A DNA stretch of 64,000 nt from Hormiphora californensis (GCA_020137815.1 CM035353.1:3720001-3784000); one strand, 5' to 3'. Shown: positions 7,672-35,986, counted from the first letter of the stretch. Notes: generated by a model not told the origin, from the sequence alone. A program made the numbers and translations.

Positions 7672-7872
7672 ATGCGTTCTATCGTGTTTCTACTCCTGTT
7701 CTCTGCAACTGTCCTATGGAAACATTCCGTGACAGAAGGTTAGTGGTAAACTAGAACTATAGGGTCAACACAAGAAGAGAGAGAGGGAGAGGATAGATCG
7801 AGAGCCTATAGTACGAGATAGAGCTCTATGAGTATATAGATCGCTATGCATACCGAGATGCGTCTATAGAGA

Positions 7873-7908
<36 letters not shown>

Positions 7909-8257
7909 CAGAGTGGTGGTGCACAGTTCCTATCTGGGCGTGACTGCTTGCATGATCGGGTGATCTGCTGTCACGCGTTGTGAAGGATAGAAAGCGGTTT
8001 ATCTTGTTCTTCCTGTATTCAGTTCAGACCACAAGGGCTACATCACTGGGCAAGATAGTGCTGATAAACCCAACTCAGAGTTCAATCAGCGGTGCTAGGG
8101 ATGCATCAAAAGCCATTGATGGGGATGTGGGAACTGAGTACCATTCTTACTTTCCAACATCATCCACTGAGGAATGGATACAGTTTGATCTGCAGGACCC
8201 ATCAGTTATATCGACAGTCACCATGATCGGCCGGTAATATACACCTAGATTTACCGG

Positions 8258-8301
<44 letters not shown>

Positions 8302-8838
8302 GTAGGGTAAATAGAGGTACAGTCCGATCCCGATTAAATGGCTGCCGCCCCCCCCCCAATGTATAACGGCACCCCGAATTAATAGCAGGATAAATTTCCC
8401 CCAAAATTTTCTTGGTAAAGAATTGTCGGATAGTGCGCTGGACCTCATTTAGCATCCCTAAACACATCAGCAAGTAAAATTAAAAATTCTAGACCCAACT
8501 TCCCACTGCACTACCGATCCTACTAATTACTACTACTAATTACTAGCACTTAGAATAAAATGACTAACCACATTTGCCTCCTATCAGGGGAGAATCTAGT
8601 ACTTTTAGTAAACAAGGATACCGTATTCTGGGGACCCAAGTGAGGATTTATAGTGTACAACAGGGCAGTTGGACCACTTGTGGAACTGTTGAGGAGCATC
8701 AATCCAACCCAGAGTACACCATTACCTGTCCCGATGACATTGTAGCAACCAAATTGTGGTTGTATGATGACATTGTCGAAGGAAATAAAGGAGTGGTTAT
8801 GATCATCAAGGAATTGATCGTTTATCGCCATCGAATGG
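7672..8838 (+). CDS. Secreted F-type lectin / F5-8 type C (galactose-binding-like fold) protein, paralogue 1; exons 7672-7738, 8023-8233, 8588-8838; 3' end uncertain
   Basis: Signal peptide MRSIVFLLLFSATVLW; GT-AG introns keep frame; motifs ASKAIDGD, EYHS, EEWIQFDL, VTMIGR, TCGTV, ITCP. Confidence 0.8.
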
Positions 8839-8859
8839 GTAAATTGTATATATTATGTA

Positions 8860-9573
8860 CAGGGGTGGGCATAAAAAATGTCCGCCCTAGACTAGCATAA
8901 TTCCAGATATCGTTGAGGGCTAAAACTTGGCAGAGTTACTCTATGGAACAAATATCATCATCATTGAACAAAATTTCAGACTTTTAAGTTCATTTTTTTG
9001 ATCGGAATGAACATTGTCAGTCATTCCAAAAAACATACATTTTCGGTCCAGAAGTCAAACAATTGTCTTTGGCTATCAAATTTCATGAGGGATGACGATG
9101 ATGATTGGCCAATGCATGAGATCCGAGGCTCATTAACAAGTGGCCTCTTTATCCCAATGCTCTCGCATCACATGTCGCTTTTCGATACACATCCCTCATT
9201 AGCGGCTATGATACGTGATTCTTCCCCAATAAGCCTGATTAGCAATTCAGAAAGTTGTCCATGATTCGGCGCGGTGGGGATCACATAACCTGACTAACTG
9301 ACAGAAATATGATCACTGTGTGCCTTGTGGTTGTCCGTTTTTGATTTTCTTGGTAGCATCTATGAAAGACATTCGATAGCCAAAGACAATTCTTTGACTT
9401 CTGGACCGAAAATTCATGTTTTTTGGAATGACTGACAATGTTCATTCCGATCAAAAAATGAACTTTGAGCTAAAAGTCCGAAATTTCTATTTATTTGTTC
9501 CATAGAGTTTTAGCCCTCTACGATATCTGGAACTATGCTAGTCTAGGGCGGACATTTTTTATGCCCACCCCTG
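8860..9573. mobile_element. Tc1/mariner-like MITE (TA TSD); a second truncated copy starts at ~9934
   Basis: TIR CAGGGGTGGGCATAAAAAATGTCCGCCCTAGACTAGCAT; TA flanks. Confidence 0.85.
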
Positions 9574-9578
9574 TATAA

Positions 9579-9767
9579 CTAGAAACTGGGGCGATCGTAC
9601 CGATCGCAAATCTAGAGACAACTAACCCAATATAATGTGATCCGATCCTTGGGTGAGGGCGATCAGATCTTCCAATATAATGTGATCCGATCTGGAGGTC
9701 GACCGGCCTCCAAAGGAATGTGTGTGACATGTGATCCAAATGAACGGATCTGCATTATATATAGTGA
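9579..9767 (-). mobile_element. Short non-autonomous Helitron
   Basis: CTAG end, GCGATCG-TAC-CGATCGC hairpin and TC start on the minus strand; same family as 36041-36361. Confidence 0.6.
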
Positions 9768-9994
9768 AAATAAAAACAGTGAAGTTGCACCAGGCAAAAA
9801 AATTAAAAAAACTAAACTTTATGTACAAACTTTTAGCAATGGACACTAATTGATTGTCTTGAATGCTAAAAGTAAAAACTATCCTTACCTAAGATATATG
9901 AAGAACTGCAGGGGACAAACATTACACAAAATACAGGGGTGGGCAAAAAATGTCCGCCCTAGACTAGCATGGTTCCAGATATCGTAGAGCGCTA

Positions 9995-10008
9995 AAAGAG
10001 AAAGAGAA

Positions 10009-10043
<35 letters not shown>

Positions 10044-10780: not shown

Positions 10781-11073
10781 CGAGCGCGCCCAACTTCATT
10801 GTGTCTCCCGCCTTTGAGATGCTAGATAAGTAGTTAAGTTGGTTAGCAAGCTGTCATGTGAGTTAGCTAACTCTAAGCTATGTGAGAAGTATACTGACAG
10901 CTAGATCGTATGCATCTCACATTAAATTATGACCAAGCCTTGATCCTGTTGGCAGTGACAATGTCACTGACATGTGAAACGGTAGGGCAGGGAAACTCAG
11001 CATTATGAATACATAATGCAATAATTCTTGTTGTTTACCGGAGCTCTACTCTGACTAAGGCAAAGGGCTCCCT

Positions 11074-12377: not shown

Positions 12378-12730
12378 CAAAGGGCTCCCTAATGGACTAC
12401 TCTGTAGACTGAGGATGGTCCTCTCACACGACACACAGGAACATTCTACATAGTTCCTAACCTCATAGTCCATTAAAAGCTCAATTCTACCATATCGGAT
12501 AGTAAAAAATACGTATCCTAGGTCCGGTATTATAGTTTAACTTACTCAATGTAAATATGTGATCCGTCAAAGAATTCATCGACAATTTAGCTAGGCTGAT
12601 ACTTGAAAGCATGCTGAATCGGATGTAAAATTAAATCATTTTAACAGAAACTCGTCACACAATTAAGAATTCATTAAATCTGAAATAGAGTTGTTTAGTT
12701 ATTCACTGTCTTATTTCCGTTCTTATATTT

Positions 12731-15700
12731 CTATACAAGTGGCACCGATCTGAAGACAACAGAAACATAAAGATCCGTTTCACCTTCCGACTTTTTAGTC
12801 AGACGAAGGGGCCTGTTTACCATTCGTACAGAATCCTGAAAATATCATGTTTTTAAACTATTATACCAAAAGTAATATGCTACTTATATGTATTTCACTT
12901 CATACATCATCAATACAATGTAGCTGCTTGGTCGCGGGGGAGGGACACATTTAAAGAATGGTCGAGTTGCAACTATGGGATCAATTCCGGTCTGGAGGTT
13001 GTAGATATGTAATGTAATTGAGAGTTTGCTGATATATTGCACCTATATACTATTTATAGCCCACGTACCGGCCCGAGGGTGAGTTTGAAACTTCCAATCG
13101 GATCATCACTATTGGGAAACACATCGGCATCATCAACTTTGAATATCAGCTCAGAACCGGTGAACCCGGAAGTCAATATCTCAATCCGTTCATTGAAAAT
13201 TGGGTTGCTGTCGTTAGGAATTTCTTTTGTCTTTAAAACCTGCAATATAGATCAGTTTATAGAAAGGCAATATCGGGTGACCGCGGTATTAATCGGGACC
13301 CGGTAAATCGGAGTCTGACTGTATAGTAGTGTCTGACTGTGGTCTGGAAACCCCTACTGCACGGAGCTTTTCTGAATCACCTCTTCGAGACGAATCCAAC
13401 GCAAACAGAATTAGCTTTCTATAGTCTAATTTTAAATAACTGTCGTTTTTTAGAGTCTTCAATTTTCTTAAAATGACCGGTTGTTGATGAGCTGGAGACT
13501 TAAAATTTGGAGGTTACGAAGATCTTGCTAAGTTCTTACGAACCTCCTCTATCTTATCAGGAACCGGAGATATGACAAATTTTGTTATTTTTGAGAAACG
13601 ACAGTTACTTAAAATCCGACTATATCTTATCGGGAAGTTTGGGCTTGAGCTCCTTCAATTCTAGTCATTTTTCGGTGCGCAGGCCAATCAGAGGCCTGAG
13701 GCCTTTATTTCGAAATCCAGACCTTTGATTGGCTCGCTCACCGAAAAAATGATCAAAAATGAAGGGGCCCAAGCCCAAACTTCCCGATAAGATAGAAAGC
13801 TTATTCCGGTTGCGTTGGATTCGTCTCGAAAAGGTGATTCAGAAAAGCTCCGTGCAGTAGGGGGTTTCCAGACCACAGTCAGACCCTACTGTAACAGTGC
13901 TGCTTGTAGTCAAATTACCGTAATGAAAATACAGTAAGGAGACGCGCACGGTGCATAACGCGCGGCAAAAAGTTCATGTGTCAGCACGTACTAGCGCCCT
14001 GATTGGTCACGGTTGCGCGTCGTCTTACTGTATCTTCGTTTTCCATTACCGTTTTCCCACTACAAGCGACCGTGTATAGCTAGTCGGACGAAAATTTTTT
14101 AAAGGTTCATCTGACGAAGATCATCATTACACAGTTTCTTCAGTATACCTCACCCAGGAACCGACCGACACAAGTAAACAACCAATCAGAACTGGTTATT
14201 TAGGTCACGTGACTGGTTATCAGCCAATCAGGGACCAGTATTTCCTGATTCGGTCGGTTCCTGACCTCACCTCTTTCCCGTTATAGTAGACAGTCACAAA
14301 GGGGTCCGATTTAGAGGAGGTATCTTTCGTAGGGACACCCGTGGCACCGTGCACGTGTACATACAAAACACCTAGGATATTATACAGAGGGAAAATTACA
14401 GTTTCTAGTTTAATCAATTGAATAGACCCTTAATCAATCAATTTTGGCAGAGCTGATTTTGAGTAGTACCAGTGTTAAGATTTTGGTTGGTTCCATCGCA
14501 GCCCGTAAATGTTGTTTTGTAGTCTGATACTGCTGAACCTTCTTGCTTTAGTGCTATTAGAGGCAGTAGGTATGCCTTAATTTCTACCTCTACCTACAAT
14601 ACATAATCAATTAATATTTTATAGAAATACTATAAATATTCATTGGTTAGTCATGATGGCGATTTAGATTGATTATAGCATGATATAGATATAGGTTATT
14701 ATTGCCTAGCTAGACTCTGTTTCGTGCGCCCCGCCCGCGAAACACAAAAGTAAAGAAGGGTTAGAACATAACAAGGATATTAATTAGAATTGTACCTTGA
14801 CATTCTGCTCATCGTTCTCGAAAGATTCGTAGATCGATGGAAGAGAGAACTCCATGTCAGACAGATCAACCTTCAAAGCAGCATACTGGATGTCTTTGAA
14901 AATAAGCCGGCTTTTCCAAACTCGGGCAACCAGCTGAAAAGAGAGAAAAATTAAGATAACAAAGATAACAAAGAAATATAGAAATCAAATTGATAACTAA
15001 TTGATAACTAATTTATATCTTAAGTTGATAACTAATTGCTATAATTACTTCTTGATCATCGAATGAGGAGACGGTACTGTTGTGAGTAAAGGTACGGGGA
15101 TCAGCCCGTAAATCGAATGATTCAGTTTTTTCTTGCCCTTCCACATCAACCGATACTTCCAAATCAGTCTTATCTGCAAGGAGAGAGATTAATTATTAAA
15201 ACTATCTTTAGGGCTGTTTAAAAGTGATACCAATCGGTTCGTGAACTTATCAGCTCTACATTAGATATAGATAGAGATTCTATAAACACCGTGCAGCGCA
15301 CCTCGATTATTATTATACCAGCTGTTTTCCCCGTCATAGAGTCGACAGTTATAAACCACCCGCCTGCTGATATTTGTAGACTGCGGGAAATATCAGCAGG
15401 GGGTATACTGTCATCGTATATCAGATAATTCATCCCTCTCCTTTCAGTGCCCATTCACACCTTTCATAATTCCCGGGGTCGGTTTATAACAGATACCCCC
15501 GGCTAGTAAAGTGATGAAATTTGATAATTCCCTACGGTGATTATCACATGTTATTCCCCTCGTCGCTTCGCTCCTCGTGGATAACGATATTGATGTACCA
15601 GCCTGTCAAGCTGGTATATCAGATCTCATCCCTCTACTATAGCCGCGGTATATTATAAATCGAGGCAATATTGATTCCACTATAATCTAATACAGTCGGA

Positions 15701-17244
15701 TCCCGATTTAACGGGTCATACTCGGGGGAAAGGGTCCGATAAATCGGGGCCCGATTGCCTATACTACCTGTGGTGTCCTCTCTAATCCTCGTGAGTTTGA
15801 TGACAGTAGTTATCACCCCTGCCATGAGCTCACTGTCACGAGGCATCATGACCACCTCCACCCCTCTACCTGCTCCCAGTCCGCTTGTGTCAAGGTACAA
15901 CCGACCAGGATACACCAATTCTGTAGAAATTAGGAGTAATTATGATATTAATTGATTAATTAATTAACTAATTAACTTCATCCAGAACTAGTTGGCAAAA
16001 TTGAGACAAGGTTTACTTACGTTGAACAATGATATTCTCGATCGCGTTTGCTATCAGCTTATCAACTCCAAGGGTATCAATGTCGATCAAATCCAGCAGT
16101 TCAACATTAAACTTCAAATCGGGCCTTTCTGTCATAGTGACGCACACACTTTTGATGCCAGGGAAGGGAACCTTGTCGGAGAAAAGGGCCGTGATTCGGA
16201 CTGAAGCGTGAATTCCTATCTTCTGGAGGGCGGCAGTCATCTTGGGAAGCAGGGATATGTCAATACCCATCTTGAACTCAAAGTCAGGGGCGTCAATTGA
16301 GAAAATGGCATCAATGATAATCTTTTTTTGTTTCCCCGACACCATCCTGCAGTTAGGCTCCACCACTTTAGTTTTTATCCCCTAGGCAAACAAAATATCA
16401 CGTTATAATGAATATTGATTGAATTTGAATGTACGGTCTTCCTGGAGCGTCTGAAGTAACACGTTCTGTATAAACTGATTGGTGGGTGGCCTTGCTACGG
16501 TGGAGTGGTCGACGTACTGGGGTGCAAGGTGGAAATGTGTATGACGCAGTGCGGCCTCTACTACTTTCGGATAGGGAATCCTCCAGACGCAGCAATCACA
16601 AACAAACAAACAAACAAACAATGAATATTTAATTGCTCCTGAAGATATACATAATATGAAAGCATGCGATAGGAATGTATCGGTCAATGTAAATTAATTC
16701 CGTTTAGTTTACCTTAATCTTCGGAGTATCTGAACCAAAGGTGCATTCCTCTAGCGTGATCTTTTCTGAAAGGACGATAGGATGAGGGTTTAACTTTATG
16801 TCATGTATATTTGCTTATCAAATATGTTCTTTCTCGCGGCACTGCACAACCCGTTTTAGTTCTCAGATGCCGGATGGGCGCTGCCAGAAAAGTAATTTCC
16901 ATGATCAATAATCATCATATATGCATATTATAATTATAAATTATCATATTCAATTCAATGAATGTATAATTGTATTGTTGGTATAAAAGTGTAAATTTAC
17001 CGATAATGGCTGGTGTTGCTTTGTTCAATTCCCTTTCCAGTACTTTTTTAACTTCCTCGTGAACCTGTTATAAGGGATCACGTATCGTTATTAATTATAA
17101 TTATTAATTAACTAATTAATTAGTTGATTTATACAAATTACAAACGCATACCTTTTCATTGTTAACACTATACCACGATGAAATTATGTCATTTAGCCAG
17201 GACATATCTGCATATCCCTCTTGGTCCGTTGTAATGGCAGACAT
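12731..17244 (-). CDS. SMP + C2 domain protein, extended-synaptotagmin/tricalbin-like; about 10 exons
   Basis: SMP-like peptides SWLNDIISSWY, ITLEECTFGSDTPKIKGIK, ERPDLKFNVELLD; C2 peptides GVLYVHVHGATGVPTKDTSSKSDPFV, NPIFNE, VDDADVFPNSDDPIG; last exon ends VFRSVPLV* at 12731. Start uncertain. Confidence 0.8.
13325..13891. mobile_element. TA-flanked MITE in an intron
   Basis: ~95-bp TIR ..GTCTGACTGTGGTCTGGAAACCCC..TACTGCACGGAGC mirrored. Confidence 0.75.
13895..14074. mobile_element. ~180-bp MITE family; also 36535-36717 and 41829-42009 (inverted)
   Basis: Three near-identical copies with CACGG/CACTG-type ends; 3-bp TSD in two (TTA, AAC). Confidence 0.75.
14155..14263. mobile_element. ~109-bp hAT-like MITE; copies at 21054-21162, 33887-33992, 46113-46221 and partial ~49180-49273
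   Basis: TIR CAGGAACCGACCGA; 8-bp TSD ACCTCACC here and ACCCATAC at 21046/21163. Confidence 0.85.
16432..16620 (+). mobile_element. Short 3' fragment of an (AAAC)n-tailed retroposon, same family as the 3' end of 27091-28794
   Basis: Matches 28621-28794; (AAAC)n tail. Confidence 0.7.
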
Positions 17245-21610: not shown

Positions 21611-24600
21611 CTACATGATAAGTCTCTCGTCGTCATCCCCAGCAACAATGTTCAGAACCCCGTTCCGCATCACGTTACTACCCATGTTATCGCTCCTCAC
21701 TCCATCCTGACGGGGGGGGGGGGGGGGTGTTATATGATTAGTGCATTATATATCTGTTCCTTTTGACTAAATTGTTAGGAACAATATTTTTGGTTTACAG
21801 TTCAATGACCGACGGTGCAAACCATTGAATTGGTTTTGATTTGAACGTTGCGAGATGCAATGGACCATTGCATCTCGCAATGCCAATGGTGTTTGGGGGA
21901 GAAGAGTTATTTAATCTAGAGTAACTCTTCTCCCCCAAACTTAAATAACTGTTAATTAATCGGTTTGTTGTTTTAGAAAACTATTCTCTCTGGTATCTCT
22001 ATTATTCTACTTACAATTGTGGCATCTTCCCCTCGGCATTTCTTGAACGTGTTTCCACATGCTTCACCCATCTGCAAGATTTCTATGTTATTTTTTTGAA
22101 TATTTCTAGTAAACGGGGGCGGGGGGGGGGGGGGGGTAAACACAGTCCCTATATTCTAAGCTTGTACAAGTTTCACGTCTGTTGTGTGACACATCTTTCA
22201 TAAAGAACAAAATATACAGGTTTCATGAGTCATATAACGTCAACTGTCCCGGGAACTATGCCAGGGGAAGGAGGAATTTATGCCACTCTACTTACATCTT
22301 TCCAGAATTTGAGGTTTGGTATCTGTTCAATACCCCGAGCTCCTAGGACAAATCTCTTGTAACCAATTCCTAGGGCCAGGTAGACAACCACAATAACTAC
22401 AAACCTGGGGAAAACGGTGTTATGATTGGGATGTTAGAGTTGGGATGTTAGGGTTGGGATGTTAGAGTTGGGATGTTATGATTGGGATATTAGGGTTGGG
22501 ATGTTAGGGTTGGGATGTTAGGGTTGGGATGTTAGGGTTGGGATGTTATGATTGGGATGTTAGAGTTGGGATGTCAGGGTTGGGATGTTAGAGTTGTGAT
22601 GTCAGAGTTGGGGTGTTAGAGTTGGGATGTTTGGGTTGGGATGTTAGGGTTGGGATGTTAGGGTTGGGATGTTAGGGTTGGGATGTTATGATTGGGATGT
22701 TAGGGTTGAGATGTTAGAGTTGGGATGCAGATGTCAGGATCATCTCGCTTCCTAATTAGGGAGTGGAGTTTATTGTTTTAGATTCAAATTATAGATCTGA
22801 CAAATGTCAAATGTGTGTGATTGGGGAACTAGAATGGACATTATATTGACATTGTTTGCCCTAAAAGTATTAGAAAGTAGATTGTCATATAATTTGTGGT
22901 TTGGACACTGGGTTAAGATTTAAGGATTAGGACATTAGAAAAGGTTGCATTACTACAACTGATGAAAGAAAAAGGTGTATTCGCATCAGTGTCTACAGGA
23001 AGCTGCAGAATAGTGTGTAAACGGGGGGGGGGGGGGGGGGGGTGTAAACGTGTAATCGAAACCCTACAAACTATTCCTTGAGTAAAACAGGGGGGGGGGG
23101 GATAAAACTCGGCAAAACGTTCTCACATGTTATATTTGTGCTTGAATTGCACACACAAATCCCCGTAAAGACGTTCAATCAGCTCCCACAGTACCTTGGC
23201 TGAAAATAACCCCGCCTGACCCCCCCCCAGCGAGGATAGCATAATACTACCAATTTCCCTAATCAGATGTAGTAGGTACCACCCATTACAATATTGTTTT
23301 GTTCAAATAGGTACCACCCATTGTTCAAATATAGGGTGAGGTAAGGCAATTATAATACCTTTCTCTATTCTTCAACACCCTCTCTCTCTCTCCTAACTCC
23401 ACATCCATCAAGTGGTCGTTGTTTATAATTACTCGCAACCATCACCGGTGAGATGCCTAATGATGTTTATCTATTTAGAAAATTAACTACTAGAATATCA
23501 GCTGCCTTTATGCCACGTAGGCACGAAGATCTATGATGGCTAGTAAAGTATATCAGTAAACTTCGCCTGCCCATTCATCATTCTCAACAGCTCGTAGAGA
23601 CTATAAATATATCTAAAAAGCTCTCAGGATATATCCACGTGATAAGCGTCGTTTAAGTGCCTGCACATACCATTTATTGACCTGTTGTAAGCTCTAGACA
23701 CTGTTTTCTAAAACTCATTTGCCACTCATCTCTTATTGAACCCTCTCTCTCCTAATCTAACCCCCCTGGTTCATAAACAACTAGTCTTTAGCACTACCCA
23801 AGCACCGGTAAAACGCCTAATGACATTTCCCTATTATATTTAGAAGCAAAACTATTATAGTGTTCAGCAGCTGCCATTCAGTCCTCAGGTGAGCTCTAAT
23901 TCCTATTCAATTAGTCTCTTGGTAGTTCACTATAAAACAATGACATTCTAGAGCCGCTACCAAAAGTCATATTGTTGTGACAGCTGCCTGTTCGCCTAAC
24001 AAACCTTGTTAACAGAAACCCAGTATCATCTAATTTGAACGAGAATTGTAGATCTGTAGTATCTGAGAATTAGATCTCCGGTACATATATGTTCACGTTC
24101 TGTGGTCATTCCTTTAACAGTTCATACTGTCTTCGGGACAACCTGTACTTTATACTTTACCTCTTCAAAATCTTTCGTGTATCTTCGGATTCCAACCTTT
24201 TGCCAAAAAATATATTATAATGCATCCAGATATTAACTTAATTTTTGTGTTGCTGATTCTAACTACAGTCGGACCCCGATTTAGTGGCCCCCGATTTAGT
24301 GGCACCCCGATTTAGTGGCAGGATTTTTCCCGTGCCACTAAATCGGGGTCCGACTGTAATGTAACTATATTATTTCGCCCTCACAGCTATGTTTTGCATT
24401 GTCCTTGTCCTTTTGATAATGGGGACCACGAATGCTACATCACTGGGCAAGATAGTGCTGATAAACCCAACTCAGAGATCAATCAGCGGTGCTAGGGATG
24501 CATCAAAAGCTATAGATGGTGACGTGGGAACTGAGTACCATTCTTACTATCCAACTTCATCCACTGAGGAATGGATAAAGTTTGATTTACAGGACCCGTC

Positions 24601-27600
24601 AGTCATATCAACAGTCACCATGATCGGCAGGTAATTTAAAAAATAATTTTGACACTTTAAAATTTCAACATTTTGCAAACCATATATTTGCTCCCTTCAG
24701 GGGAGGCTCTGGTACTTTTGGATACCGTATTCTGGGGACCCAAGTGAGAATTTATAGTGAACAACAGGGCAGTTGGACCACTTGTGGAACTGTTGAGGAG
24801 CATCAATCCAACCCAGAGTACACCATTACCTGTCCCGATGACATTGTAGCAACCAAATTGTGGTTGTATGATGACATTGTGGCAGAAAATGATCAGATGA
24901 TCATGGTTATCAAGGAGTTGACCGTTTATGGTCGTTTAATGGGTAAATCATAATACAGTCGGACCCCAATTTAGTGGCCCCCGATTTAGTGGCCCCCGAT
25001 TTAGTGGCACCCCGATTTAGTGGCAGGATTATTTCCCCCGATATAGGAAATTAATATTATTTGAACCCGAAATACCGGGCACCCCGATTTACCGGGCAAA
25101 ACCCTTTCCCCCCGAGCATCCCGGTAAATCGGGGTCCGACTGTATTATAGGAGAAGCATAAAAACAGTTACACTAGGCAAAAAAATTAAAAAATTAAACT
25201 TTATGCACAAACTTTTAGTAATGGACACGTCTTGATTGTGTCATGCTAAAAGTAAAAACTATCCTTACCCAAGATATATGAAGAACAGGGGATAAACATT
25301 ACACACAAAGATTACAAAGCCTAGCAAGATTTTGATCACATATTTTGTTAACGATCTCTTTCTCATCAATATATTATAGATGATCTGTTGATACTGTCAA
25401 AATATTATCTCAAGATACTGTCAAAATACTGTAGATTAAAAGATGTTATAGATTTGATTTTCTTGGTCCACACGTGGACCTTTACTCCCAGCCGTCCTAT
25501 CTAGGACAGACAACCCTCACCACCACAGACCCCAGTCCACGGACTGCTTCCTTTCCCATGAACACCTCATTTTATTTTCTCAGTGTTGTTTTCTTTTTTA
25601 ATACACCCTGTTTTCTTTTTCCATTTTTCACTTTGTTTTTCTGCTAGTTTGAGCTGCTTTGTGTCTTCCTGTTTTCAAGTGTGTTTTTTTCATGTTTAAT
25701 TTTCATCTGATTTTTGTTTCATTTGTGTTTTTACATTCCGCTTTTCGTACCCCACCCTATACTGTGATTTTTCTTCCTTTTTTTACAGTCCCTCCACCCC
25801 TAGTATTTTGCATCCCTTGTTATTGTATTGTTCTTATTATACGATCTAACCCAGACACTTTCGCTTGGGGAGGGCCTGGTGTGAGTGGTCCGTGCTATCA
25901 CAGTGCGAGGAAGAGCGTAGTTTACTCTTTTCAGCACTCATCATGCGCACGTGAGTCCCCACAATGCAGTACACGGAATAGGTCGGTATACAAATACCCT
26001 AGATTGTGTTTCGCGGGCGGGGCGCGCAAAACAGAGTCTAGCTAGGCAAGGGTAAAGTCGGATTTCTTGAAACTGTCGCCCCCTGGGTGGCGCACGAGTT
26101 TTTATTTGCGCGTCGGAAACTTGTTTCCGCTCTCATGCCTTTGTTTCTTGACCAATTTCGTCAAACTAAAGTTTTACGGACTCACAAAATTATGCTCTTT
26201 CCGATGATATAATGCGGTTTTTTGCCGAAAAGTGAGAGCAAGTGGGGGCTGTCATGCGCAAATACGACGCCCCGCATGAAAAGGAGTGCAACAGTTTCGA
26301 AAAATCCGACTTTACTGTGTATTTAGCACCAAGTAAAAGAAATCGTGGTTTCTTTTTATAGATTTATCAGTGTGCGTGGGAGCTCTCTGATTTTGTAAAT
26401 GGGGAATACTGATCTAAGAGAGGTTGATGTATACTGAATAATTGAAAATGGAGGGAGAGAGAGGAAGAAAATGATGGAGAGAGGAGGATAACGCAGGGAG
26501 CCGAGGGAGAGCTAATCACTATCTCGGGACAAAGCAAAGTTCTAGAAATAGGAAAGCTACCTTTGGTTTTATATTTTTCTTGAAGCTATAATATACTTTA
26601 AAAATAACTCATGCACCTTACGTCATAGATAGGTTTATAGCCACTATAATCGAAGCAGAATTTCACCCTGAGGAAGATGGTTGTACACATATTTATTTTT
26701 TTCTAGGATGTTTCTGAAACCCATAAAAGCCAAAAAACCTAAAAACCCTTAAAGGGCCTAAAAACCCAAATTTTATTTAATTATTTTGAACACTCCATTG
26801 TTACAAGTATGCTATTGGAGTCCCAAAAAACATAGGTACATGCCACACGGGCCCCAGGTGAGCTCAGGGCGAGCCCCTCAAGTTGGGGCCCCCTTGTAAA
26901 CGCACTTGTACTCCTTGAAGTGCTAACAATATGATCCTCTCTCAAATATAAATTTAGGATAGAAACTATCCTTGTGTTTTAGTAGATTTCATAATCTTTC
27001 TCATCAATTATTATTTAAGCCTATCAAAACTAGGAGAAAAAATTACCAGAATACAGAGACAAGAAATATTATGTACTCACCTGAAACACACAGTTCATAC
27101 ATTTGCAGTTTCATGTTTGTTTCATTTTGAATGCTCTGTTACACTGACATACACTCGTCTAAGTCTCTCTTTAATCCTAAATCTATCACTACACAACCGT
27201 ATCGCCTAGTTTGGTTCAGTAATTCTGTCAAATGGTGCTCCTTTTCTGTATCTTTCAACACAGTACCTCTAATAGCTGATCTCTAACGCACTCAATACCT
27301 GCTCGTTTTCTTGTACTCAGGTCACGTCCATAATATTGCTCTGTTTCAAAACATACTCCTTGTGCCAATGCTCCACTATATCCCCTAATAATTCCCAAAA
27401 TTTCAAGTTTCTATCTTCAAAACTGTGGTCTCAGTAGCATTAAAACTGTCCCTGCATTATCCTGCATTCTGGATACAGAATAACTTTGCGATGTGTGACA
27501 TAAACGAATTCTCGGGATTCTCCAAACTCTCTCACAAACAGTTCATACATTTGCAGTTTCATGTTTGTTTCATTTTGAATGCTCTGTTACACTGACATAC

Positions 27601-30600
27601 ACTCGTCTAAGTCTCTCTTTAATCCTAAATCTATCACTACACAACCGTATCGCCTAGTTTGGTTCAGTAATTCTGTCAAATGGTGCTCCTTTTCTGTATC
27701 TTTCAACACAGTACCTCTAATATCTGATCTCTAACGCACTCAATACCTGCTCGTTTTCTTGTACTAGCCACCACCCACCCCTCCACTTGTCTAAGTCTCT
27801 CTTTAATCCTAAATCTATCACTACACAACCGTATCGCCTAGTTTGGTTCAGTAATTCTGTCAAATGGTGCTCCTTTTCTGTATCTTTCAACACAGTACCT
27901 CTAATATCTGATCTCTAACGCACTCAATACCTGCTCGTTTTCTTGTACTAGCCACCACCCACCCCTCCACCCCACCCACCTCCCCCGTCGCTTATCGCGT
28001 GTAACAATTAATAAATGTTCTTATCAGGCCACCCGACTTCTAGAACATCTTACATTCCAGTAGCGCTGCAATCTGTCCTATACCCCTTATTTGTGTTTGA
28101 TCGTTTTCGTTTATCTTTGTCTCTACTGGAAATGGACACACTACACATCTCATCACCATCACGTCACGGTATCCATTACATCCATCAAGGTCGTAAGTTT
28201 GTCAGTCCGTTGTTATGTACAGTTGTATCCAAATTATGATCGTAGCCATTGAGAGATTCTATTCCTATTCTTAGTTAGTATCTTTAGCTAAAAGCGCTGT
28301 TGACAGACCGTACTCAAAATGGAAAACGTTACCTCGATCCAGACCAAGTCCAAGACTTGCTACCTTGTTCCAGAACAAAACATCTCAAGACTACCACAAA
28401 GGCAAAACGTTACCTTGTTCCAGACCAAACAAACGCAAGACACTCAAAGGCAAATTGTTACCTTGTTCCAGACCAAACCAAACTCAAGAATCTCTCAAAG
28501 GCAAAACGTTACCTGCTCCAGCTTAATATAAACCTTAGGAATTGATTTAGGCCAGGAGTAGTGTGATACCCCTGTCGACGCCGTGCGGCTCACGCCGCTC
28601 GGCGTCGCCAGTGGTTGACCACGGTCTTCCTGGAGCGTCTGAAGTAACATGCTCTGCATAAACTGATTGGTGGGTGGCCTTGCTACGGCGGAGTGGTGGA
28701 CGTGCTGGGGCGCCTAATAAGCGTGCTCGGTGCGGCCGCCGCTACTTTCGGGCAGGTCACTCGCCAGACGCAGCAAGTACAAACAAACAAACAAACCTGA
28801 AACACAAGGCTAAATTTTACCCAAAACTTCAAATTTCAGAGAGGATCATATTGTTAGCATTTCAAGGAGTACAAGCGCGTTTACAAGGGGACCCCAACTG
28901 ACCCCAACTTGAGGGGCTCCCCCTGGGCCCAAATTGGGCGGGTGGGGGCGTGTTTTTTGGGACTTGTTACGATGTAGTGTTCAAAATAATTAAATAAAAT
29001 TTGGGTTTTTAGGCCCTTTAAAAACCTAAGTTTAGGATTTGACCACTAAAATAAATTTGACTTCTAATCAGACACCAAAAGAACATTCTGCTCAATTTTG
29101 CCCATTATATATAATAGGCAATTATGAGCAGAATGGGATTATAGGCTATGGGCAAAAAAAGGTGACGCCCCCCCCCCCCTTGATAACTGTACAGGGGAGA
29201 GCGCTAGGAAACAAGTATGTTCGTTAGCTAATGTATAGGGAGAGAGTTAGTCTACTGTCTAATATAAGGCAGCTGGGGATCTCCCTCTAAAAGAGACATT
29301 ATAGAGGGACATCCTTAGCTGCCTTATATTAGACTAACTCTATTCTAATGCCCTCTCCCATTTCCCAACACATGCTTGCTTCAACCCTGTCTCAGCTGTT
29401 TAGAATTGTTTCTATACAAGAGCAATTCGATGATTATACTTATCATGGTTGGTCAAAAAACTAAAAGACCTTGAGATCGAACCACTACTATGTTTGTGTC
29501 AATTAAATTTATTAATTGCGTCCTAGGAAGATAGCTGTTGACATGTTGCGTATATTTTTACTGCTAACAGCATTGGAGGCGACCCTTGGTACGGTTCAGG
29601 CAGGTAATATAAATATAATATTAGTAGAGTCGATAACTACATCGCACGGCGTGCCTGGTGAAATTTTAACACGACCTAGCATGCAACGGGAAACCACCAC
29701 TTGTACGTGGTAGCTGAGGGTCTACAGAATGGCGCTACGGTGCGGGAAAAAACATTCCATTCCCTAAAATCGTTTTTTTTACTTTTATTTGATTTGGGTC
29801 AAAATTGGCTATATTAAACGTGGTCCCGAAAAATCCATAATGACTTAGCACACGAAATATGTCACCCCCACCTATTTTTGCACGTAGAATCGATTGCCGT
29901 TGAAGTCGAATCTCTAAAATGACTGTAAAATGGTCAAAAGTTGATTTTTTACCATTTTTTGGAGGTTTTTGGCCCCTAAACCATTGAAAAAGTTGAGATA
30001 GGAATTTGAAACTAGTGCCAATCGTTAAAATGGTCATTTTTCTACCAAGAACCAAGTTTTCGTGTATATCCGATTTATGGTTAGATTTGGGCAAATTGTT
30101 GAAATCTGCCAACTAGGAGAACCGTAACTTGATTTTCTTGTTTTTTGGATTTTGGCATTTTTGACAAACTTCTGATTGAAATGGTCAATCGGGACCATGC
30201 TTAAGTTGTTTATGGGACAATTTTCGACTAAAATCCAAGATTTCATACCAATCCAATAACAGATCGTTAATTTATAGAAAAATTAAGTAGGCAAAACGGT
30301 CAAAATGACAACTTTTCTTGCTTATTTTGACCGTTTTGCCTACTTAAATTTTCTATAAATCAACGATCTGTTATTGGATTGGTATGAAATCTTGGATTTT
30401 AGTCGAAAATTGTCCCATAAACAACTTAAGCATGGTCCCGATTGACCATTTCAATCAGAAGTTTGTCAAAAATGCCAAAATCCAAAAAACAAGAAAATCA
30501 AGTTACGGTTCTCCTAGTTGGCAGATTTCAACAATTTGCCCAAATCTAACCATAAATCGGATATACACGAAAACTTGGTTCTTGGTAGAAAAATGACCAT

Positions 30601-33600
30601 TTTAACGATTGGCACTAGTTTCAAATTCCTATCTCAACTTTTTCAATGGTTTAGGGGCCAAAAACCTCCAAAAAATGGTAAAAAATCAACTTTTGACCAT
30701 TTTACAGTCATTTTAGAGATTCGACTTCAACGGCAATCGATTCTACGTGCAAAAATAGGTGGGGGTGACATATTTCGTGTGCTAAGTCATTATGGATTTT
30801 TCGGGACCACGTTTAATATAGCCAATTTTGACCCAAATCAAATAAAAGTAAAAAAAACGATTTTAGGGAATGGAATGTTTTTTCCCGCACCGTAGCGCCA
30901 TTCTGTAGACCCTCAGCTACCACGTACAAGTGGTGGTTTCCCGTTGCATGCTAGGTCGTGTTAAAATTTCACCAGGCACGCCGTGATCGACCTCTCCCAA
31001 TTGTTCCAGTTTTTGTCACATCTGTTTGGAGCCTCGACACGACCTCTAAACAGGTGTTACTTTTTCACAAACTGTTTTCATCTTGGTGTAATCAGCTGTT
31101 GAAATGTTGTCGATCATAACAAAAACCGAACTATTTTTTTTCAACTTGGGGTAAAACCATGGGTGTCAAAAGTTAGCTCTAGGTCCCCTGAGTAACCATC
31201 CGGAGACTCTAAGAGATATTTCAAGCCGTTCTCCTGTAATCATTAATCCCGGTAGAGCACATATTTGAGTATGGACGTACGTGCAATTGCCTACAACCTC
31301 AACTTTAATGTATAACGTTAAAGTGCGTCTCTCTCTTTTCTCCCCCTTGAGAAAGAGTTATCTCGCGCGGCGCAACCGCACGTGCGGTTTTTCCAGAGAG
31401 AGTGAGAGACATACAATAACATGTAAACAGCCTGCCAGCGCTCACGTACGTCCGCATTGTATTTTTTTCTTCACCGGGATTAATGATTACGGGAGAACGG
31501 CTTGAAATATCTCTTAGAGTCTCCGGATGGTTACTCAGGGGACCTAGAGCTAACTTTTGACACCCATGGTTTTACCCCAAGTTGAAAAAAAATAGTTCGG
31601 TTTTTGTTATGATCAACAACATTTCAACTGCTGATTACACCAAGATGAAAACAGTTTGTGTAAAAGTAACACCTGTTTAGAGGTCGTGTCGAGGCTCCAA
31701 ACAGATGTGACAAAAACTGGAACAATTGGGAGAGGTCGATGTAGTTATCGACTCTACTATATGATGTAGTGAGATTGAGATCATTGTAAAAGCTCGATTT
31801 ACCGTGAAAAACCCTTCCACCGGGAAGTCCATTTAAGATCGAGGTTTGACTGTATTGACATAATAATGTAAATTTAATTCGTTGAAATCCTAAAATTCAT
31901 TCTTATATATCCCAAGATTGGAAAACCGTACAAGGATCTGGGCAGATCACCTGGAATTTTGAACGCAATTCTCTGGACATCACAACAACCTCAGTTCTTG
32001 GAAGCAACAATGCAGTCAGGCTAGATTTCTACAACCCTGGACTTCTTGGCTACATTGAAATCCACTTTCAAGAATCCTTTAGCTTCTATATGAGCTATTG
32101 TGCCGGGTTGGAGACCACGTTCACAGCTCCAGCAGCAGAAGTCGCCAAAACATGGACCATTTGGAAAACAGAGGACTTCTTGATTGTCGAGTGTAATGAG
32201 GTTGAGGTGCTGAGGTATGCCCTTCTAGATGATTGCAAGGAACACTGGAGTGTGGATAGTGCCGTGGCCCTCTTTTTCAGTTCTTATGATACTGCCTCCC
32301 TTCAATACCGTGTGAAAATAATACCAGGTAAAATTGATTAAATTTTTAGTTTTTCATTGAGTTGAGATTTTGGTTCTCTTATTTCTTCTCTTTCTGTCAT
32401 TCTTCTCTTTCTGTCATTCTATTCAATGAATTAAAATTAGGGGAACTAGTAGCAGCAGCAGAAACTGCAGCTGAAGATATACAACTGACTAAGATATGCA
32501 CATAATCACCCTAAACACTAAACATGATTCACCCACGCTGTCTCTATATTTGGTCCTACTTTGATCAAACCTAACCGTACACCTTGACTTACAGAACGTT
32601 TATTCTTCCCCCGAAGAGCCCGATTATAAATCGAAGTAGGACAACAAAATTCTGCACATGATAGAGTGTTTTTACAATACCACTTCCGAGTCTTGTTTTC
32701 GTTATTATGACTATGTTCCCCGTTTGCCAACCATCAGGTCATTAGTCATTATCAGCTCGTGTGATTATTTTCATTTAATTCAACTTACTGTCTACCCTTG
32801 ATAAACTTCCTTAAATGTGTAATATGCGGCACTTCAGTTTTCACCCACTCTCCCATTATATGGACGTATTATACAGAAGACTCTACTCTCTACTCTTATC
32901 TCATGTAACCTCCTTGTAACCTTGACAACAGTTATATTTTACTGCTCTCTTATCCCTTAGCAAACCAGAGCAAACATTTTAGAGATGATGAATGCACGTG
33001 ACATTTATTATTGTCCAGACTATAAAAGTAAACACTATGAACCACCACGTTACGTCATTGTTTTACGAGTGTTGCTTGTGTGCTTATATTTATCCAGCAT
33101 CATTTCATCTGGTTGCTTAGCGTTGTATTGTATTCTTACAATTGTGGTCCCCGAATATATATTGTTATCTGATTTTTATGATATCAGTAAAAATACATAA
33201 GTTTTTATTGAAGTTAAGTTATAATTCAACTCGTTACATATATTGTCATAGTGTGCAAGAGTGGAATGGCCGTGTTTTTCATAGTATGGAACATTGTCAT
33301 AATAGCAGCTTGTGCAGGTCAACAACTCGTTCTGATAAACCCGACACAGAGATCAATCAGCAATGGTAGGGATGCCTCAAAAGCCATTGATGGTGACGTG
33401 GGAACTGAGTACCATTCTCTGACATCGGATGCTGAGGAATGGATAAAGTTTGATTTGCAGGACCCATCAATCATATCAACAGTCACCATGATCGGCAGGT
33501 AATATAATTTTGAACATTTCAACATTTTGAAATTCATGTTATATTTGCTTCCTTCAGGACAGACTATAAAACTTGGGGAAACCGTATTCTGGGGACCCAA

Positions 33601-35986
33601 GTGAGAATCTATAGTGAACAACAGGGCAGTTGGACCACTTGTGGAACTGTTGAGGAGCATCAATCCAACCCAGAGTACACCATTACCTGTCCCGATGACA
33701 TTGTAGCAACCAAATTGTGGTTGTATGATGACACTGTGGCAGAAAATGGCGGTACCACCGATGGAGGAGTGATTATGATAATCAAGGAGTTGACTGCTTT
33801 TGGAAACCCCACAACGAGTAAGTGTCTAGATGGATGAAACGTCTGCTTGTCAGTATACAGAAGGCAATGTTCGCTGATATGTTGAACAGGAACCGACCTA
33901 ATCAGGAAACACTGGTCCCTGATTGGCTGATAACCAGTCACGTGACCGAAATGACCAGTTCTGATTGGCTGTTTACTTGTTTCGGTCGGTTCATGATGTT
34001 AAATATCGTAAATGTGTCCTGCTGCAGCATACTAAATTACAATAACTCAGATATATAATATAAACTCTAGTTCAACACATACCGTATATATATTTCTATG
34101 AACTTGTGTTTGGTAAATTATGGTTTTTACTGTTGTTTGCTATTTTGTATTCACTTAGTGGGAATTTGTCTAATCTACGGTGGTCTACCAACTGCTTGAC
34201 AGGTTTTCTATACTATAGAGAACCTGTCAAGCAGTTGGTAGACCACCGTAGATTAGACAAATTCCCATTTTCACATAACGTATTATACCCAAAAAACCCA
34301 TCGACCCCCCACCCCTCTGGCCAACCACCGACCCTCTCTGACCTTAAATAAACCACCGAACCTCCCAACTCCTACTCAAATATCAGCGGTACTTACTCAA
34401 GGACAAGTAGTTTTCCTGCAGACATGCCTCCACGTGATTTAGAGTTCGCCGGACAAACAAGGGGAGTGCTCCATTCGAACATGTAATAACAGTAGTCTGT
34501 GTTGTTATTCGCTTCGTCCAGGAGTTGCGGTTCACCCTGTTACAGAAGTGAGAAGTCAGTGATAATATATGATATATTGATATATATTGTATTGTATGTA
34601 TTGTATATATTGTATGTACATTCAACTGTAGTTTTTTATTGCGGTTCACTCTGTTTTTTATGAATTTTTTATGAAACAAAGTTCTTATTCTACTGTAGTT
34701 TTGTGCGCTAGAGAGCTACAGACATACATGGTGCCGACTGCCGAAATTTTAAATAAATTCTCATCAAAATGTGTCTGCAGTGACTTAGATAAGGATGGAA
34801 AGGTGTTTGCAGTACAAATATCCAATTACCATCTGCAAAGATAAAACATTTCTTTGTGAAAAGAGAATTTGTGGCCCGCGAGTATTATTACATGGGTTCC
34901 ATATATCATAATGGAGTGTATTATATTGTAGCCCCTGACAAGATAGACGGAATAAAATTTCGTAACGACGTTACAACTACTCTGTTTCGATAGATGCAAA
35001 AAAAGGGCGAGAGAGAGAATGGCTTCACTCACAGAAAAGTGTAACTTACGTTTCCATCAACATTGGGGTCACAAATAAACAAAATCTGAGCTTTCCTTGC
35101 TTGTTTGTTGCAGTGGTTGTGGTAATTATCTCCCTCCCCGAATACCAGCTGCACCCACTCGTCTGAAGAAAATGCATCTTTTGAGCCCCCCTAATAAACC
35201 CTGCGAGGTCTGTTAGTTGCACAAAAAGTTCTGTTTTGAAAGCAAAACAATAAATTCTGAGGAAGAAACACCACTTTTACCTCCCCCGTGTCGTGAGATG
35301 ATCTTGGTCGCAACAACATGCTGTTCACCATTGCCCGTCTGTAGGATTGCATCATTCTTCAGGTCGTTACCTGAAACGAATATATAATACAGCTTGGTGT
35401 ACTGCGATAAGGTGATGAAGTTATACAGTAGGTCAAAACTGTTGTTGACCCGGATATTTCGCCAAAAGATCTCATTTTACCGCCCCAGGAATAGAAAAAA
35501 AACACAGCACTATAACAGCTACAGATCGCGATGAAATAGTAAAATATCAAGGTCACACACTATCAGGTGCTTACTTACCTAAGTCAATATTTGATTCTCC
35601 GCAAAGGGCAAAGTGGTAGACCCACCCGGAACTATCTTCAACCTTGTACCTGCAGGGAATATATTCAATAAACAACGGAATTTCAAGGATATAATATGTT
35701 TTTTAACCAAAAAAAACAATTAAGTTTTGGTGAAACAGCCTATTATTCTTGGCACTGATCTGACGGACACTGATCTGAACCTGATTCATGGTTGCACTTT
35801 TGTTGCCTTAATATTAAATAACTGTCACAAACAAGATGCAAGATCTTGCAAAACTTACACTTTAGTACCAAGGGGAGACAAGTCGTATTTGTTGGTGTCA
35901 CCGTTTAGATTCTCCTTGCAGAGTTTGTTAATATCAGCCCCGTTTGTGTTTCGTAGGGTAGTGAACAGTAGTAGTAACGGTAACAT
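21611..35986 (-). CDS. M6PR: Cation-dependent mannose-6-phosphate receptor; exons 35986-35859, 35649-35579, 35370-35281, ~35190-35050, 34536-34397, 22404-22296, 22071-22015, 21706-21611
   Basis: Signal peptide; WVQLVFGEGDNYHNHCNKQARKAQILFIC; CYYMFEWSTPLVC; TM followed by YKRFVLGARGIEQIPNLKFWKD; C-terminus DDDERLIM*. All match the CD-MPR pattern. Confidence 0.9.
22418..22726. repeat. 13-14-bp G-rich minisatellite GTTAG(G/A)GTTGGGAT, about 22 units
   Basis: Seen directly; begins just inside the M6PR intron next to the acceptor. Confidence 0.9.
24266..24356. mobile_element. TA-flanked CAGTCGGACCCCGATTTA MITE; also 24956-25142, 44393-44564 and several fragments
   Basis: TIR CAGTCGGACCCC; internal CCCCGATTTAGTGG subrepeats; TA TSD. 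Confidence 0.85.
24389..24953 (+). CDS. Secreted F-type-lectin-like paralogue 2; exons 24389-24630 and 24701-24953 (or donor at 24943); antisense within the M6PR intron
   Basis: Signal MFCIVLVLLIMGTTNA; same phase-2 intron after MIGR; high identity to paralogue 1. Confidence 0.85.
26053..26313. mobile_element. Short TIR element; uninterrupted version of 52187-52967
   Basis: TAAAGTCGGATTT...AAATCCGACTTTA; shows the empty sites for two insertions found at 52 kb. Confidence 0.75.
26691..29058. mobile_element. Degenerate inverted-repeat element hosting a retroposon
   Basis: 26750-26900 is mirrored at 28885-29020. Confidence 0.55.
27091..28794 (+). mobile_element. Retroposon-like insertion with internal tandem repeats and (AAAC)n tail
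   Basis: 12-bp TSD ACCTGAAACACA at 27079-27090 and 28795-28806; internal ~448-, ~182- and ~60-bp repeats. Confidence 0.7.
29543..32505 (+). CDS. Secreted protein with one ctenophore-type extracellular domain; exons 29543-29603, 31917-32327, probable terminal exon 32441-32505
   Basis: Signal MLRIFLLLTALEATLG; phase-1 introns; WKTV..SLDITTTSVLGS..KTWTIWKT..IVECNEVEVL..YDTASLQYR resembles a repeat domain I recall from ctenophore proteomes. Confidence 0.75.
29622..31759. mobile_element. Foldback MITE (TAGTAG ends, TSD TAT) interrupted by a Chapaev-like palindrome
   Basis: Left arm 29622-29644 continues at ~30990; mirrored to 31759; TAT flanks. Confidence 0.85.
29645..30985. mobile_element. 1341-bp palindromic Chapaev-like (CMC) non-autonomous element
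   Basis: CACGG...CCGTG ends; 4-bp TSD ATCG; ~660-bp arms; ~17-nt spacer. Confidence 0.85.
33266..33837 (+). CDS. Secreted F-type-lectin-like paralogue 3; exons 33266-33498 and 33558-33817 (donor) or to the stop at 33837; antisense within the M6PR intron
   Basis: Signal MAVFFIVWNIVIIAACAG; H-x27-RTD-x6-R resembles the F-type fucose-binding motif. Confidence 0.85.

What the first reader, a model, noticed from the sequence alone, without database searches (positions are those of the whole stretch)
7672..33837. F-type-lectin-like family with constant framework and hypervariable binding loops
Seen: three paralogues are almost identical in the framework but differ in sequence and length at discrete loops. 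After the His they read HSYFPTSST / HSYYPTSST / HSLTSDA. After the first Arg they read RGESSTFSKQGYR / RGGSGTFGYR / RTDYKTWGNR. The late loop reads DIVEGNKGVV / DIVAENDQMI / DTVAENGGTTDGGVI. Known: in F-type lectins the H..RxD..R triad binds fucose, and surrounding CDR-like loops set specificity. Only paralogue 3 keeps RxD. Inference: a diversifying secreted glycan-recognition repertoire (immunity, prey or allorecognition) in a probable ctenophore.
Basis: partly seen in the sequence, partly recalled or inferred. Interest (0 to 1): 0.82.

Follow-up and report, generated by a model that had tools for sequence, protein, structure and literature searches.

The report
Comb-jelly lectin trio with drifting loops
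Three neighbouring genes, likely from a comb jelly, encode near-identical proteins that are predicted to be secreted sugar-binding lectins and differ mainly in the loops predicted to ring the binding pocket; those loops change at about the neutral rate while a 116-124-base stretch is identical in all three, likely through gene conversion, so this is a likely small lectin repertoire of a kind already known from eels and oysters.

Summary
Observation confirmed: 9 of 9 quoted motifs are in the window, in three intact, signal-peptide-bearing genes (g1 7672-9853, g2 24389-25235, g3 33266-33837). Closest named relatives are Pleurobrachia bachei proteins; a model of one has the F-type/CBM32 jelly-roll (Z 15-16, the two families tied). 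His-Arg-Arg positions and the calcium motif are kept; the strict fucose motif fails in 3 of 3. With loops defined from the model, 30 of 52 CDR-equivalent columns vary (all 10 gap columns) against 6 of 90 elsewhere. dN/dS is 1.0-1.1 in those loops and 0.06 elsewhere; loop pN (0.27) equals framework pS (0.28), so positive selection is not shown and neutral drift suffices. It stands as one deep contig in short-read data and varies among P. bachei paralogues, which points to gene conversion. Read contigs show at least four more loop variants. Expression, ligand and role are untested.

The parts
7672..7738 (+). g1 exon 1, signal-peptide-like, phase-1 donor (predicted)
   Evidence: hydrophobic core
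8023..8233 (+). g1 exon 2: CDR1-equivalent, IDGD calcium motif, His, loop SYFPTSST, ends inside first Arg codon
   Evidence: PF00754 E 6e-7
8588..8838 (+). g1 exon 3: loop GESSTFSKQGY, second Arg, Cys pair, loop IVEGNKGVV
8657..8772 (+). g1 copy of the DNA-identical block (116 nt with g3; 120 nt, to 8776, with g2)
9837..9853 (+). g1 predicted short last exon and stop; surrounding 158 nt 86% identical to the g2 counterpart
24389..24630 (+). g2 exon with signal peptide, calcium motif, His, loop SYYPTSST
24701..24942 (+). g2 exon: loop GGSGTFGY, second Arg, Cys pair, loop IVAENDQMI
24753..24876 (+). g2 copy of the DNA-identical block (124 nt with g3)
25219..25235 (+). g2 predicted short last exon and stop
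33266..33498 (+). g3 exon with possible signal peptide (or spliced in at the AG before 33318), calcium motif, His, loop SLTSDA
33558..33837 (+). g3 exon: loop TDYKTWGN, second Arg, Cys pair, loop TVAENGGTTDGGVI; a GTAAGT donor after 33817 means the true C-terminus may lie in an unidentified exon
33610..33733 (+). g3 copy of the DNA-identical block; matched end to end by one 124-nt read contig with no differences
29543..32327 (+). gX, a neighbouring predicted secreted gene (exons 29543-29603 and 31917-32327) with a galectin/ConA-like sandwich model; phase-compatible with g3, so possibly its N-terminal part

Best explanation
These three genes are members of a duplicated family, likely from a pleurobrachiid comb jelly, that encodes predicted secreted single-domain lectins of the F-type/CBM32 fold; selection holds the scaffold nearly fixed while three loops predicted to ring the sugar pocket change at about the neutral rate, so each copy likely binds a somewhat different glycan. 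Mechanism: the calcium site and one disulfide would stiffen the barrel; His and two Arg would grip an axial hydroxyl of a terminal sugar (fucose- or galactose-like), with an aromatic residue (Phe/Trp in g2 and g3) in place of the eel Cys-Cys pair; the CDR3-, CDR4- and CDR5-equivalent loops would contact neighbouring sugars and set fine specificity. Copies arise by local duplication and likely exchange DNA by gene conversion, which has made a 116-124-nt block between CDR4 and CDR5 identical and leaves the loops as the main differences. Shown: sequences, rates, the identical block. Inferred: splicing, secretion, pocket geometry, conversion, sugar binding.
For: Open frames and conserved intron position. 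omega 0.06 over 87 non-loop codons, omega = 1 rejected at p 3e-7, which implies protein-level selection. Pfam PF00754 on the His-bearing exon of 3 of 3 genes. A profile of close members alone ranks FBP32 (3cqo, E 2e-4) and eel agglutinin (1k12, E 3.5e-4) first among 7 PDB hits. Model of P. bachei P0002, pLDDT 89, matches F-type domains at Z 15.2-16.3, rmsd 2.1-3.1, 125-140 aligned. His, Arg, Arg and IDGD are invariant in 3 of 3 while adjacent loops differ. Block: 0 differences in 38 codons where the other framework has pS 0.17-0.25; permutation p 1.2e-4 and 3.4e-3; the same 38-39 columns differ at 10-12 positions among three P. bachei domains; one 124-nt contig, 0 differences, depth 284 against 40-41 for g3-specific contigs, ends exactly where g2 and g3 diverge. 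g3's CDR5 is closer to P. bachei (p 0.27-0.40) than to g1/g2 (0.60-0.67) although its block equals theirs. Precedent: eel isoforms and oyster bindin (PMC5712786 section 10).
Against: Loop omega is 1.0-1.1 and not distinguishable from 1 (p 0.78-0.85); loop pN 0.27 equals framework pS 0.28, so nothing shows the differences are useful. The strict fucose motif fails in 3 of 3. The fold ties with CBM32 (Z 15.7), and Foldseek ranks CBM32s first. HMMER aligned the ctenophore His to eel His47, not His52, so the triad His is assigned by inference. In the P. bachei trio the non-CDR Cys-Cys loop varies as much (0.44) as CDR5 (0.40), so variation is not pocket-only in the wider family. The g3 + P. bachei grouping has only 93/69 support and may be shared ancestral state. 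The model is of a relative, not of a window protein.
Confidence: 0.55

Rival explanations
1. The loops simply drift: long surface loops tolerate substitutions and indels, the three copies are functionally redundant (same ligand, dosage or tissue split), and there is no repertoire.
For: omega 1.0-1.1; pN 0.27 and pS 0.28 in CDR3-5 equal framework pS 0.28; PMC5712786 section 8 says most indels in F-type domains fall in CDRs because the core tolerates them there; pocket against other loops outside the block is only p 0.09.
Against: An average omega of 1 over loops that include invariant positions (CDR2 0 of 5 variable; kept Gly, Asp) leaves room for sites above 1; the acid that pairs with the first Arg is Glu, Gly and Asp in the three copies, a position described as part of the binding motif; at least six CDR5 types occur.
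Confidence: 0.25
2. An arms-race repertoire: positive or balancing selection drives the loops, and conversion through the invariant block re-assorts CDR4 and CDR5 types between copies and haplotypes, as recombination does in oyster bindin.
For: CDR4 by-eye pN 0.49-0.54 with pS 0-0.05 for g3 against g1/g2 (5-6 silent sites only). Two contigs over 33300-33429 in run X2 (depth 33 and 41) look like g3 alleles, one with 11 substitutions and 3 gap letters; 5 of the 6 visible changes match g1 or g2. A 413-nt contig in X6 carries the g1-type CDR4 (with His for Gln) and then only 1 difference from g3 over 157 nt where window g1 has 4 (my reading of tables 7 and 8).
Against: No omega above 1; contigs cannot phase loops across the block or separate alleles from paralogues; only three full genes were available.
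Confidence: 0.13
3. The domains bind something other than sugar (protein or lipid), as discoidin/F5-8C domains do, and the lectin reading is only fold likeness.
For: Strict fucose motif absent; family tie in the fold search; relatives P0008, P0016 and P0101 lack the His.
Against: His and both Arg are kept in 3 of 3 window genes and in P. bachei P0001 domain 1 and P0002; PMC5712786 notes that the lipid-binding factor V C2 domain lacks the whole triad (passage).
Confidence: 0.05
4. The identical block is an assembly or polishing artefact that copied one paralogue's sequence into the others.
For: The window has low-quality-looking stretches (around 20000-20900); runs X1-X4 may be the sample the window came from; the X2 contig is not broken at 33618, where window g1 should join.
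Against: The exact 124-nt sequence has about seven times the depth of g3-specific contigs in X2 and its ends match the g2/g3 divergence points; X6, a second sample, has a contig with 1 difference across it. The tool warns that depth is no copy number.
Confidence: 0.02

Closest known systems
Eel F-type lectins: Anguilla anguilla agglutinin (PDB 1k12) and the seven A. japonica isoforms (PMC5712786, sections 5, 8, 10 read)
   Same: Single secreted F-type domain; hDGx calcium motif; His-Arg-Arg positions; Cys108-Cys124-type disulfide (15 residues between); isoforms differ in loops around the pocket.
   Different: Eel isoforms keep CDR4 strictly and vary in CDR1/CDR2 without size change; here CDR2 is short and invariant while CDR3, CDR4 and CDR5 vary in sequence and length. 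No Cys50-Cys146 or Cys82-Cys83 equivalents; His-Arg spacing 27-29, Arg-Arg spacing 8-11.
Pacific oyster sperm bindin F-lectin repeats (PMC5712786 section 10)
   Same: Diversity around the pocket, an intron in the middle of the domain, some variants losing triad residues, exchange between copies.
   Different: Bindin has documented positive selection at eight sites, intron recombination and alternative splicing of 1-5 repeats from few genes; here separate single-domain genes, no positive selection shown, and the exchange signal is an exonic identical block.
CBM32 / F5-8 type C galactose-binding modules (e.g. PDB 2v72, 4a44, 7blg; Pfam PF00754, PF22633)
   Same: Same fold at tied Z (15.1-15.7); short DG-to-His spacing; His plus first Arg.
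   Different: Bacterial enzyme-attached modules; the window proteins also have the second Arg and the Cys pair of F-type lectins, and a close-member profile prefers F-type lectins.
Pleurobrachia bachei EukProt proteins P0001 (two domains in one model), P0002, and more distant P0015, P0027, P0055
   Same: 72-73% identity to the g2 exon, same layout, each with its own loops; one clade with g1-g3 at 100/99.
   Different: Unnamed gene models with no described function; their block region is not homogenised (10-12 differences).

Membership tests
F-type lectin (FTLD) | F-type jelly-roll fold | tested here: met
   Model of relative P0002: Z 16.3, rmsd 2.2, 132 aligned to 4gwi; Z 15.4, rmsd 3.1, 133 aligned to 1k12. 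CBM32 ties, so the fold alone does not separate them.
F-type lectin (FTLD) | Calcium motif hDGx and the other ligands | tested here: met
   IDGD in 3 of 3; Glu147 equivalent kept; Ser49 equivalent read as Thr by counting from the His (inference).
F-type lectin (FTLD) | Basic triad His-Arg-Arg in the pocket | tested here: inconclusive
   Both Arg align with eel Arg79 and Arg86 and are kept in 3 of 3; HMMER puts the His against eel His47 next to a 5-residue gap, and no coordinates were available for superposition.
F-type lectin (FTLD) | Fucose motif HX24RXDX4(R/K) (as printed in PMC5712786 and PMC12221842) | tested here: not met
   His-Arg spacing 29, 29, 27; R+2 = E, G, D; Arg-Arg spacing 11, 8, 8. 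A loosened pattern matched 0 of 3 window rows and 8 of 12 named fucolectins.
F-type lectin (FTLD) | Disulfides Cys50-Cys146, Cys82-Cys83, Cys108-Cys124 | tested here: not met
   Only the last pair is present (Cys 124/140, 109/125, 106/122). The review notes that Cys82-Cys83 is often lost in accepted members.
F-type lectin (FTLD) | Salt bridges Asp64-Arg131 and Arg41-Glu149 | tested here: not met
   By profile alignment Asp64 is kept but Arg131 aligns with Thr; Arg41 and Glu149 positions are Val and Ile/Thr.
F-type lectin (FTLD) | Binds L-fucose or fucosylated glycans | not testable with these tools
   No binding assay; no sugar ligand offered for co-folding.
CBM32 / F5-8 type C | Pfam PF00754 at gathering score | tested here: met
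   g1 exon 2 scores 30.0 bits against a cut-off of 28.2; g2 and g3 half-domain exons 26.8 and 27.5, just under; whole P0002 43.1. This model also covers named fucolectins.
CBM32 / F5-8 type C | Galactose-type binding site and attachment to a carbohydrate-active enzyme | tested here: inconclusive
   His and first Arg are shared; no enzyme domain in the three gene models, but g3's ends are uncertain.
Positively selected recognition repertoire (bindin type) | omega above 1 at pocket sites | tested here: inconclusive
   Partition omega 1.0-1.1, LRT p 0.78-0.85 against 1, 31-44 codons, three sequences, no site model.

The most novel reading that the evidence does not exclude
Pleurobrachiid comb jellies keep a germline, combinatorial glycan-recognition repertoire: old CDR3, CDR4 and CDR5 loop types, some older than the split from P. 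bachei, are re-assorted among lectin gene copies and haplotypes by gene conversion that uses an invariant 120-base block between CDR4 and CDR5 as its exchange hub.
Probability: 0.15. Interest if true: 0.72.

Novelty: new variant of a known kind. Interest (0 to 1): 0.4.

Why it matters
[quoted passage not shown] A loop-diversified F-type-like family would extend a strategy known from eel and oyster to a very early-branching animal lineage and give three small, easily expressed proteins that differ almost only in their loops, a natural swap experiment for lectin specificity. If phased data showed loop re-assortment through the identical block, it would be a germline diversification mechanism for a non-bilaterian recognition protein. 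As it stands the pattern is what purifying selection on a scaffold, neutral loops and patchy gene conversion produce in many gene families.

Tried and rejected
No whole genome is held, so no genome-wide copy count. No RNA holder listed; the two guessed-RNA runs laid (X11, X7) gave 6 and 9 pieces, in repeats or non-coding parts apart from one 35-nt intronic piece, which says nothing about expression. Run X10 (organism B) laid nothing. The metagenome scan gave 1 locus of 15 candidate stretches, L001, 40% over 48 residues, not a family member as far as I could see and not followed up. Single-exon PDB searches were weak (best E 0.25) or gave unrelated hits. Profile A2 prefers F-type lectins strongly but contains two named fucolectins (P0103, P0148), so I rest on profile A1. 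Loop limits were set by eye and are circular; replaced by model-based limits. The p 0.012 counted 9 other-loop columns, 3 of which lie in the block; corrected to p 0.09. The deep tree (45 rows, 3 left out for short envelopes) leaves the relation of the ctenophore group to named F-type lectins and bacterial modules open. Atlas search of P0002 gave generic F5/8C clusters; of gX nothing reliable. Contig depths were not used as copy numbers. No complex prediction was run. Paper searches for a prior description: searches found none; some searches gave the precedents or nothing relevant. Bishnoi et al.'s survey of F-type domains (cited in PMC5712786) was not read and may list ctenophore sequences; no supplements were opened.

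Full report
Observation. All 9 of 9 motif starts searched occur once each on the + strand. Reading the DNA gave three models with GT-AG introns and open frames: g1 7672-7738, 8023-8233, 8588-8838, 9837-9853 (181 aa); g2 24389-24630, 24701-24942, 25219-25235 (166 aa); g3 33266-33498, 33558-33837 (170 aa). A phase-2 intron splits the first Arg codon in all three. Each has a hydrophobic N-terminus and no later membrane-length segment. Splicing is inferred; g3 has a donor after 33817 and a phase-1 acceptor before 33318, so both its ends are uncertain. No genome is held.

Identity. The His-bearing exon of 3 of 3 genes hits PF00754 (E 6e-7 to 6e-6), and the other exon weakly hits PF22633. The g2 exon found 2 proteins among 159 candidates, 72-73% identical. 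P0001 is labelled Pleurobrachia bachei, as are P0015, P0027, P0055 and P0074 (5 of 10 looked up); P0002 carries the same kind of EukProt 'sb' label and I treat it as P. bachei. So the window is likely from a pleurobrachiid ctenophore. A profile search gave 167 hits at E 0.001, 150 listed, among them many short marine proteins of the same layout. A profile of close members only ranks FBP32 and eel agglutinin first of 7 PDB hits. The AlphaFold model of P0002 (pLDDT 89) matches F-type domains at Z 15.2-16.3 and CBM32s at Z up to 15.7, a tie; Foldseek lists CBM32s first.

Membership. Against the features in PMC5712786 (outline, passages and sections 5, 8, 10 and the first part of 16 read) and PMC12221842 (passages and section 8): calcium motif met; both Arg align with eel Arg79/Arg86; the His is kept but HMMER sets it against His47 beside a 5-residue gap, so its match to His52 is my inference; the printed fucose motif fails in 3 of 3 (loosened pattern 0 of 3 against 8 of 12 named fucolectins); one of three disulfides and neither salt bridge is kept. 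It works like an F-type lectin by prediction, but I do not file it as a canonical member.

Where the variation sits. With loop limits from the P0002 model and the eel alignment, 30 of 52 CDR-equivalent columns vary (CDR1 3/8, CDR2 0/5, CDR3 5/9, CDR4 9/11, CDR5 13/19) against 1 of 22 other-loop and 5 of 68 core columns; all 10 gap columns are in CDRs. Against this, 16 of the 22 other-loop columns fall in the identical block; the 6 outside give p 0.09, and in three P. bachei domains the non-CDR Cys-Cys loop varies as much as CDR5 (0.44 and 0.40).

Rates. Codon models give omega 1.00-1.11 for 44 CDR codons and 0.055-0.063 for 87 others; omega = 1 is rejected only for the latter (p 3e-7 against 0.78). 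Mean pS is 0.28 in CDR3-5 and 0.28 in the framework outside the block; pN is 0.27 and 0.02. The g2/g3 intron is 84% identical over 56 aligned bases. So the scaffold is under strong purifying selection, which implies working proteins, and the loops change at the neutral rate.

The identical block. g1/g2 share 120, g1/g3 116 and g2/g3 124 identical bases between CDR4 and CDR5: 38 codons with no silent change. Permutation p is 1.2e-4 over 315 framework columns with 23 variable, and 3.4e-3 over 95 silent-capable codons with 14 changed. Protein constraint does not explain it, since the same stretch differs at 10-12 positions among three P. bachei domains and at 5-10 from the window. In run X2 one 124-nt contig covers 33610-33733 with no difference at depth 284, against 40-41 for g3-specific contigs, and ends where g2 and g3 diverge; X2 may be the window's own sample and depth is no copy number, but an artefact is unlikely. 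g3's CDR5 is nearer P. bachei than g1/g2, and g3 groups with P0001 domain 1 at 93/69, not a firm branch. Gene conversion after the copies diverged is the likely cause (inference).

More variants. Loose ends (18 of 29 rows shown) translate to three further CDR5 types, TNGNNKNDEG, EVIDGDVVIT and EEDSEDAFKDG, a CDR3 reading HSFYPTSS and a g1-type CDR4 with His for Gln. The substitution table (40 of 551 rows shown) gives a CDR4 of about ANYGTYGY in X2 and X5. Other contigs differ at 7-11 places in the block, so the conversion tract is not family-wide. Two X2 contigs at depth 33 and 41 over 33300-33429 look like g3 alleles, one with 11 substitutions, 5 of 6 visible ones matching g1 or g2. Contigs cannot tell alleles from paralogues or phase loops across the block, so these are hints.

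Mechanism. Likely: secreted monomeric domains with a calcium-braced barrel; His and two Arg hold a terminal sugar; CDR3-5 touch neighbouring sugars; duplication supplies copies, purifying selection and conversion keep the scaffold alike, and free loop change gives each copy a shifted specificity (0.55). Rivals: redundant copies with drifting loops (0.25); selected, shuffled repertoire (0.13); non-sugar ligand (0.05); artefact (0.02). Whether the role is defence, prey capture or gamete recognition is open; PMC6278862 (passages) lists 'lectin' among enriched colloblast categories without naming this family.

Comparison and novelty. Eel isoforms vary in CDR1/2 with fixed CDR4; oyster bindin has positive selection and intron recombination; most F-type indels are in CDRs. 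The strategy is therefore known. Different here: the lineage, the short invariant CDR2, length change in CDR3-5, loss of the strict motif and the exonic identical block. 'Ctenophor' occurs 0 times in both reviews; searches (listings seen) found no description; passages of PMC11797021 cover other domains. The library lacks most subscription papers, and the Bishnoi survey was not read. The scan's earlier notes have nothing on this family (one search gave a skate F-type gene). Verdict: real, a new variant of a known kind, interest 0.4.

Noticed in passing
window 29543-29603 and 31917-32327 (+): gX: signal-peptide exon plus a 136-aa phase 1-1 exon with no Pfam hit; model (pLDDT 69) resembles galectins and ConA-like sandwiches, best Z 11.2, rmsd 3.5, 127 aligned. 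26% identical, E 4e-10, to P. bachei P0074, which also has an F-type-like end. Could be a separate gene or spliced onto g3.
   Followed up: partly
window 29645-30986: A palindromic element of about 1.3 kb inside gX's first intron, with 97% copies at 53099-54278 and 55711-57052; the latter lie in a 2.6-kb near-perfect tandem duplication 51663-56890.
   Followed up: no
window about 12400-17300 (-): A multi-exon gene on the minus strand between g1 and g2 that looks like an SMP/C2 (extended-synaptotagmin-like) gene by recall; the one fragment scanned had no Pfam hit.
   Followed up: partly
window 42539-43630 (+) and 46652-47521 (-): Two long ORFs (364 and 290 aa) with a seven-membrane-helix, GPCR-like look and no Pfam hit at E 1.
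   Followed up: partly
window 50641-50976 (-): Exon of a TIM21 gene (PF08294, E 4e-7).
   Followed up: partly
window 7956-8040 (+): Upstream of g1 exon 2 the frame reads like a decayed in-exon signal peptide without ATG, as if g1 switched to a separate signal exon while g2 and g3 keep theirs in the same exon (my reading).
   Followed up: no
window 33830 (+), run X6: An 11-letter insertion in one contig just past the GTAAGT donor, which would fit this stretch being intron rather than coding.
   Followed up: no
window 8858-9576 and 24264-24358, 24976-25149: Short inverted-repeat elements sit in the last introns of g1 and g2 and just upstream of g2; the g2 ones are very high-copy in reads.
   Followed up: no
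proteins P0008, P0016, P0101: Close relatives from unnamed marine contigs replace the pocket His with Tyr, Val or Gln, so the triad is not fixed across the wider family.
   Followed up: no
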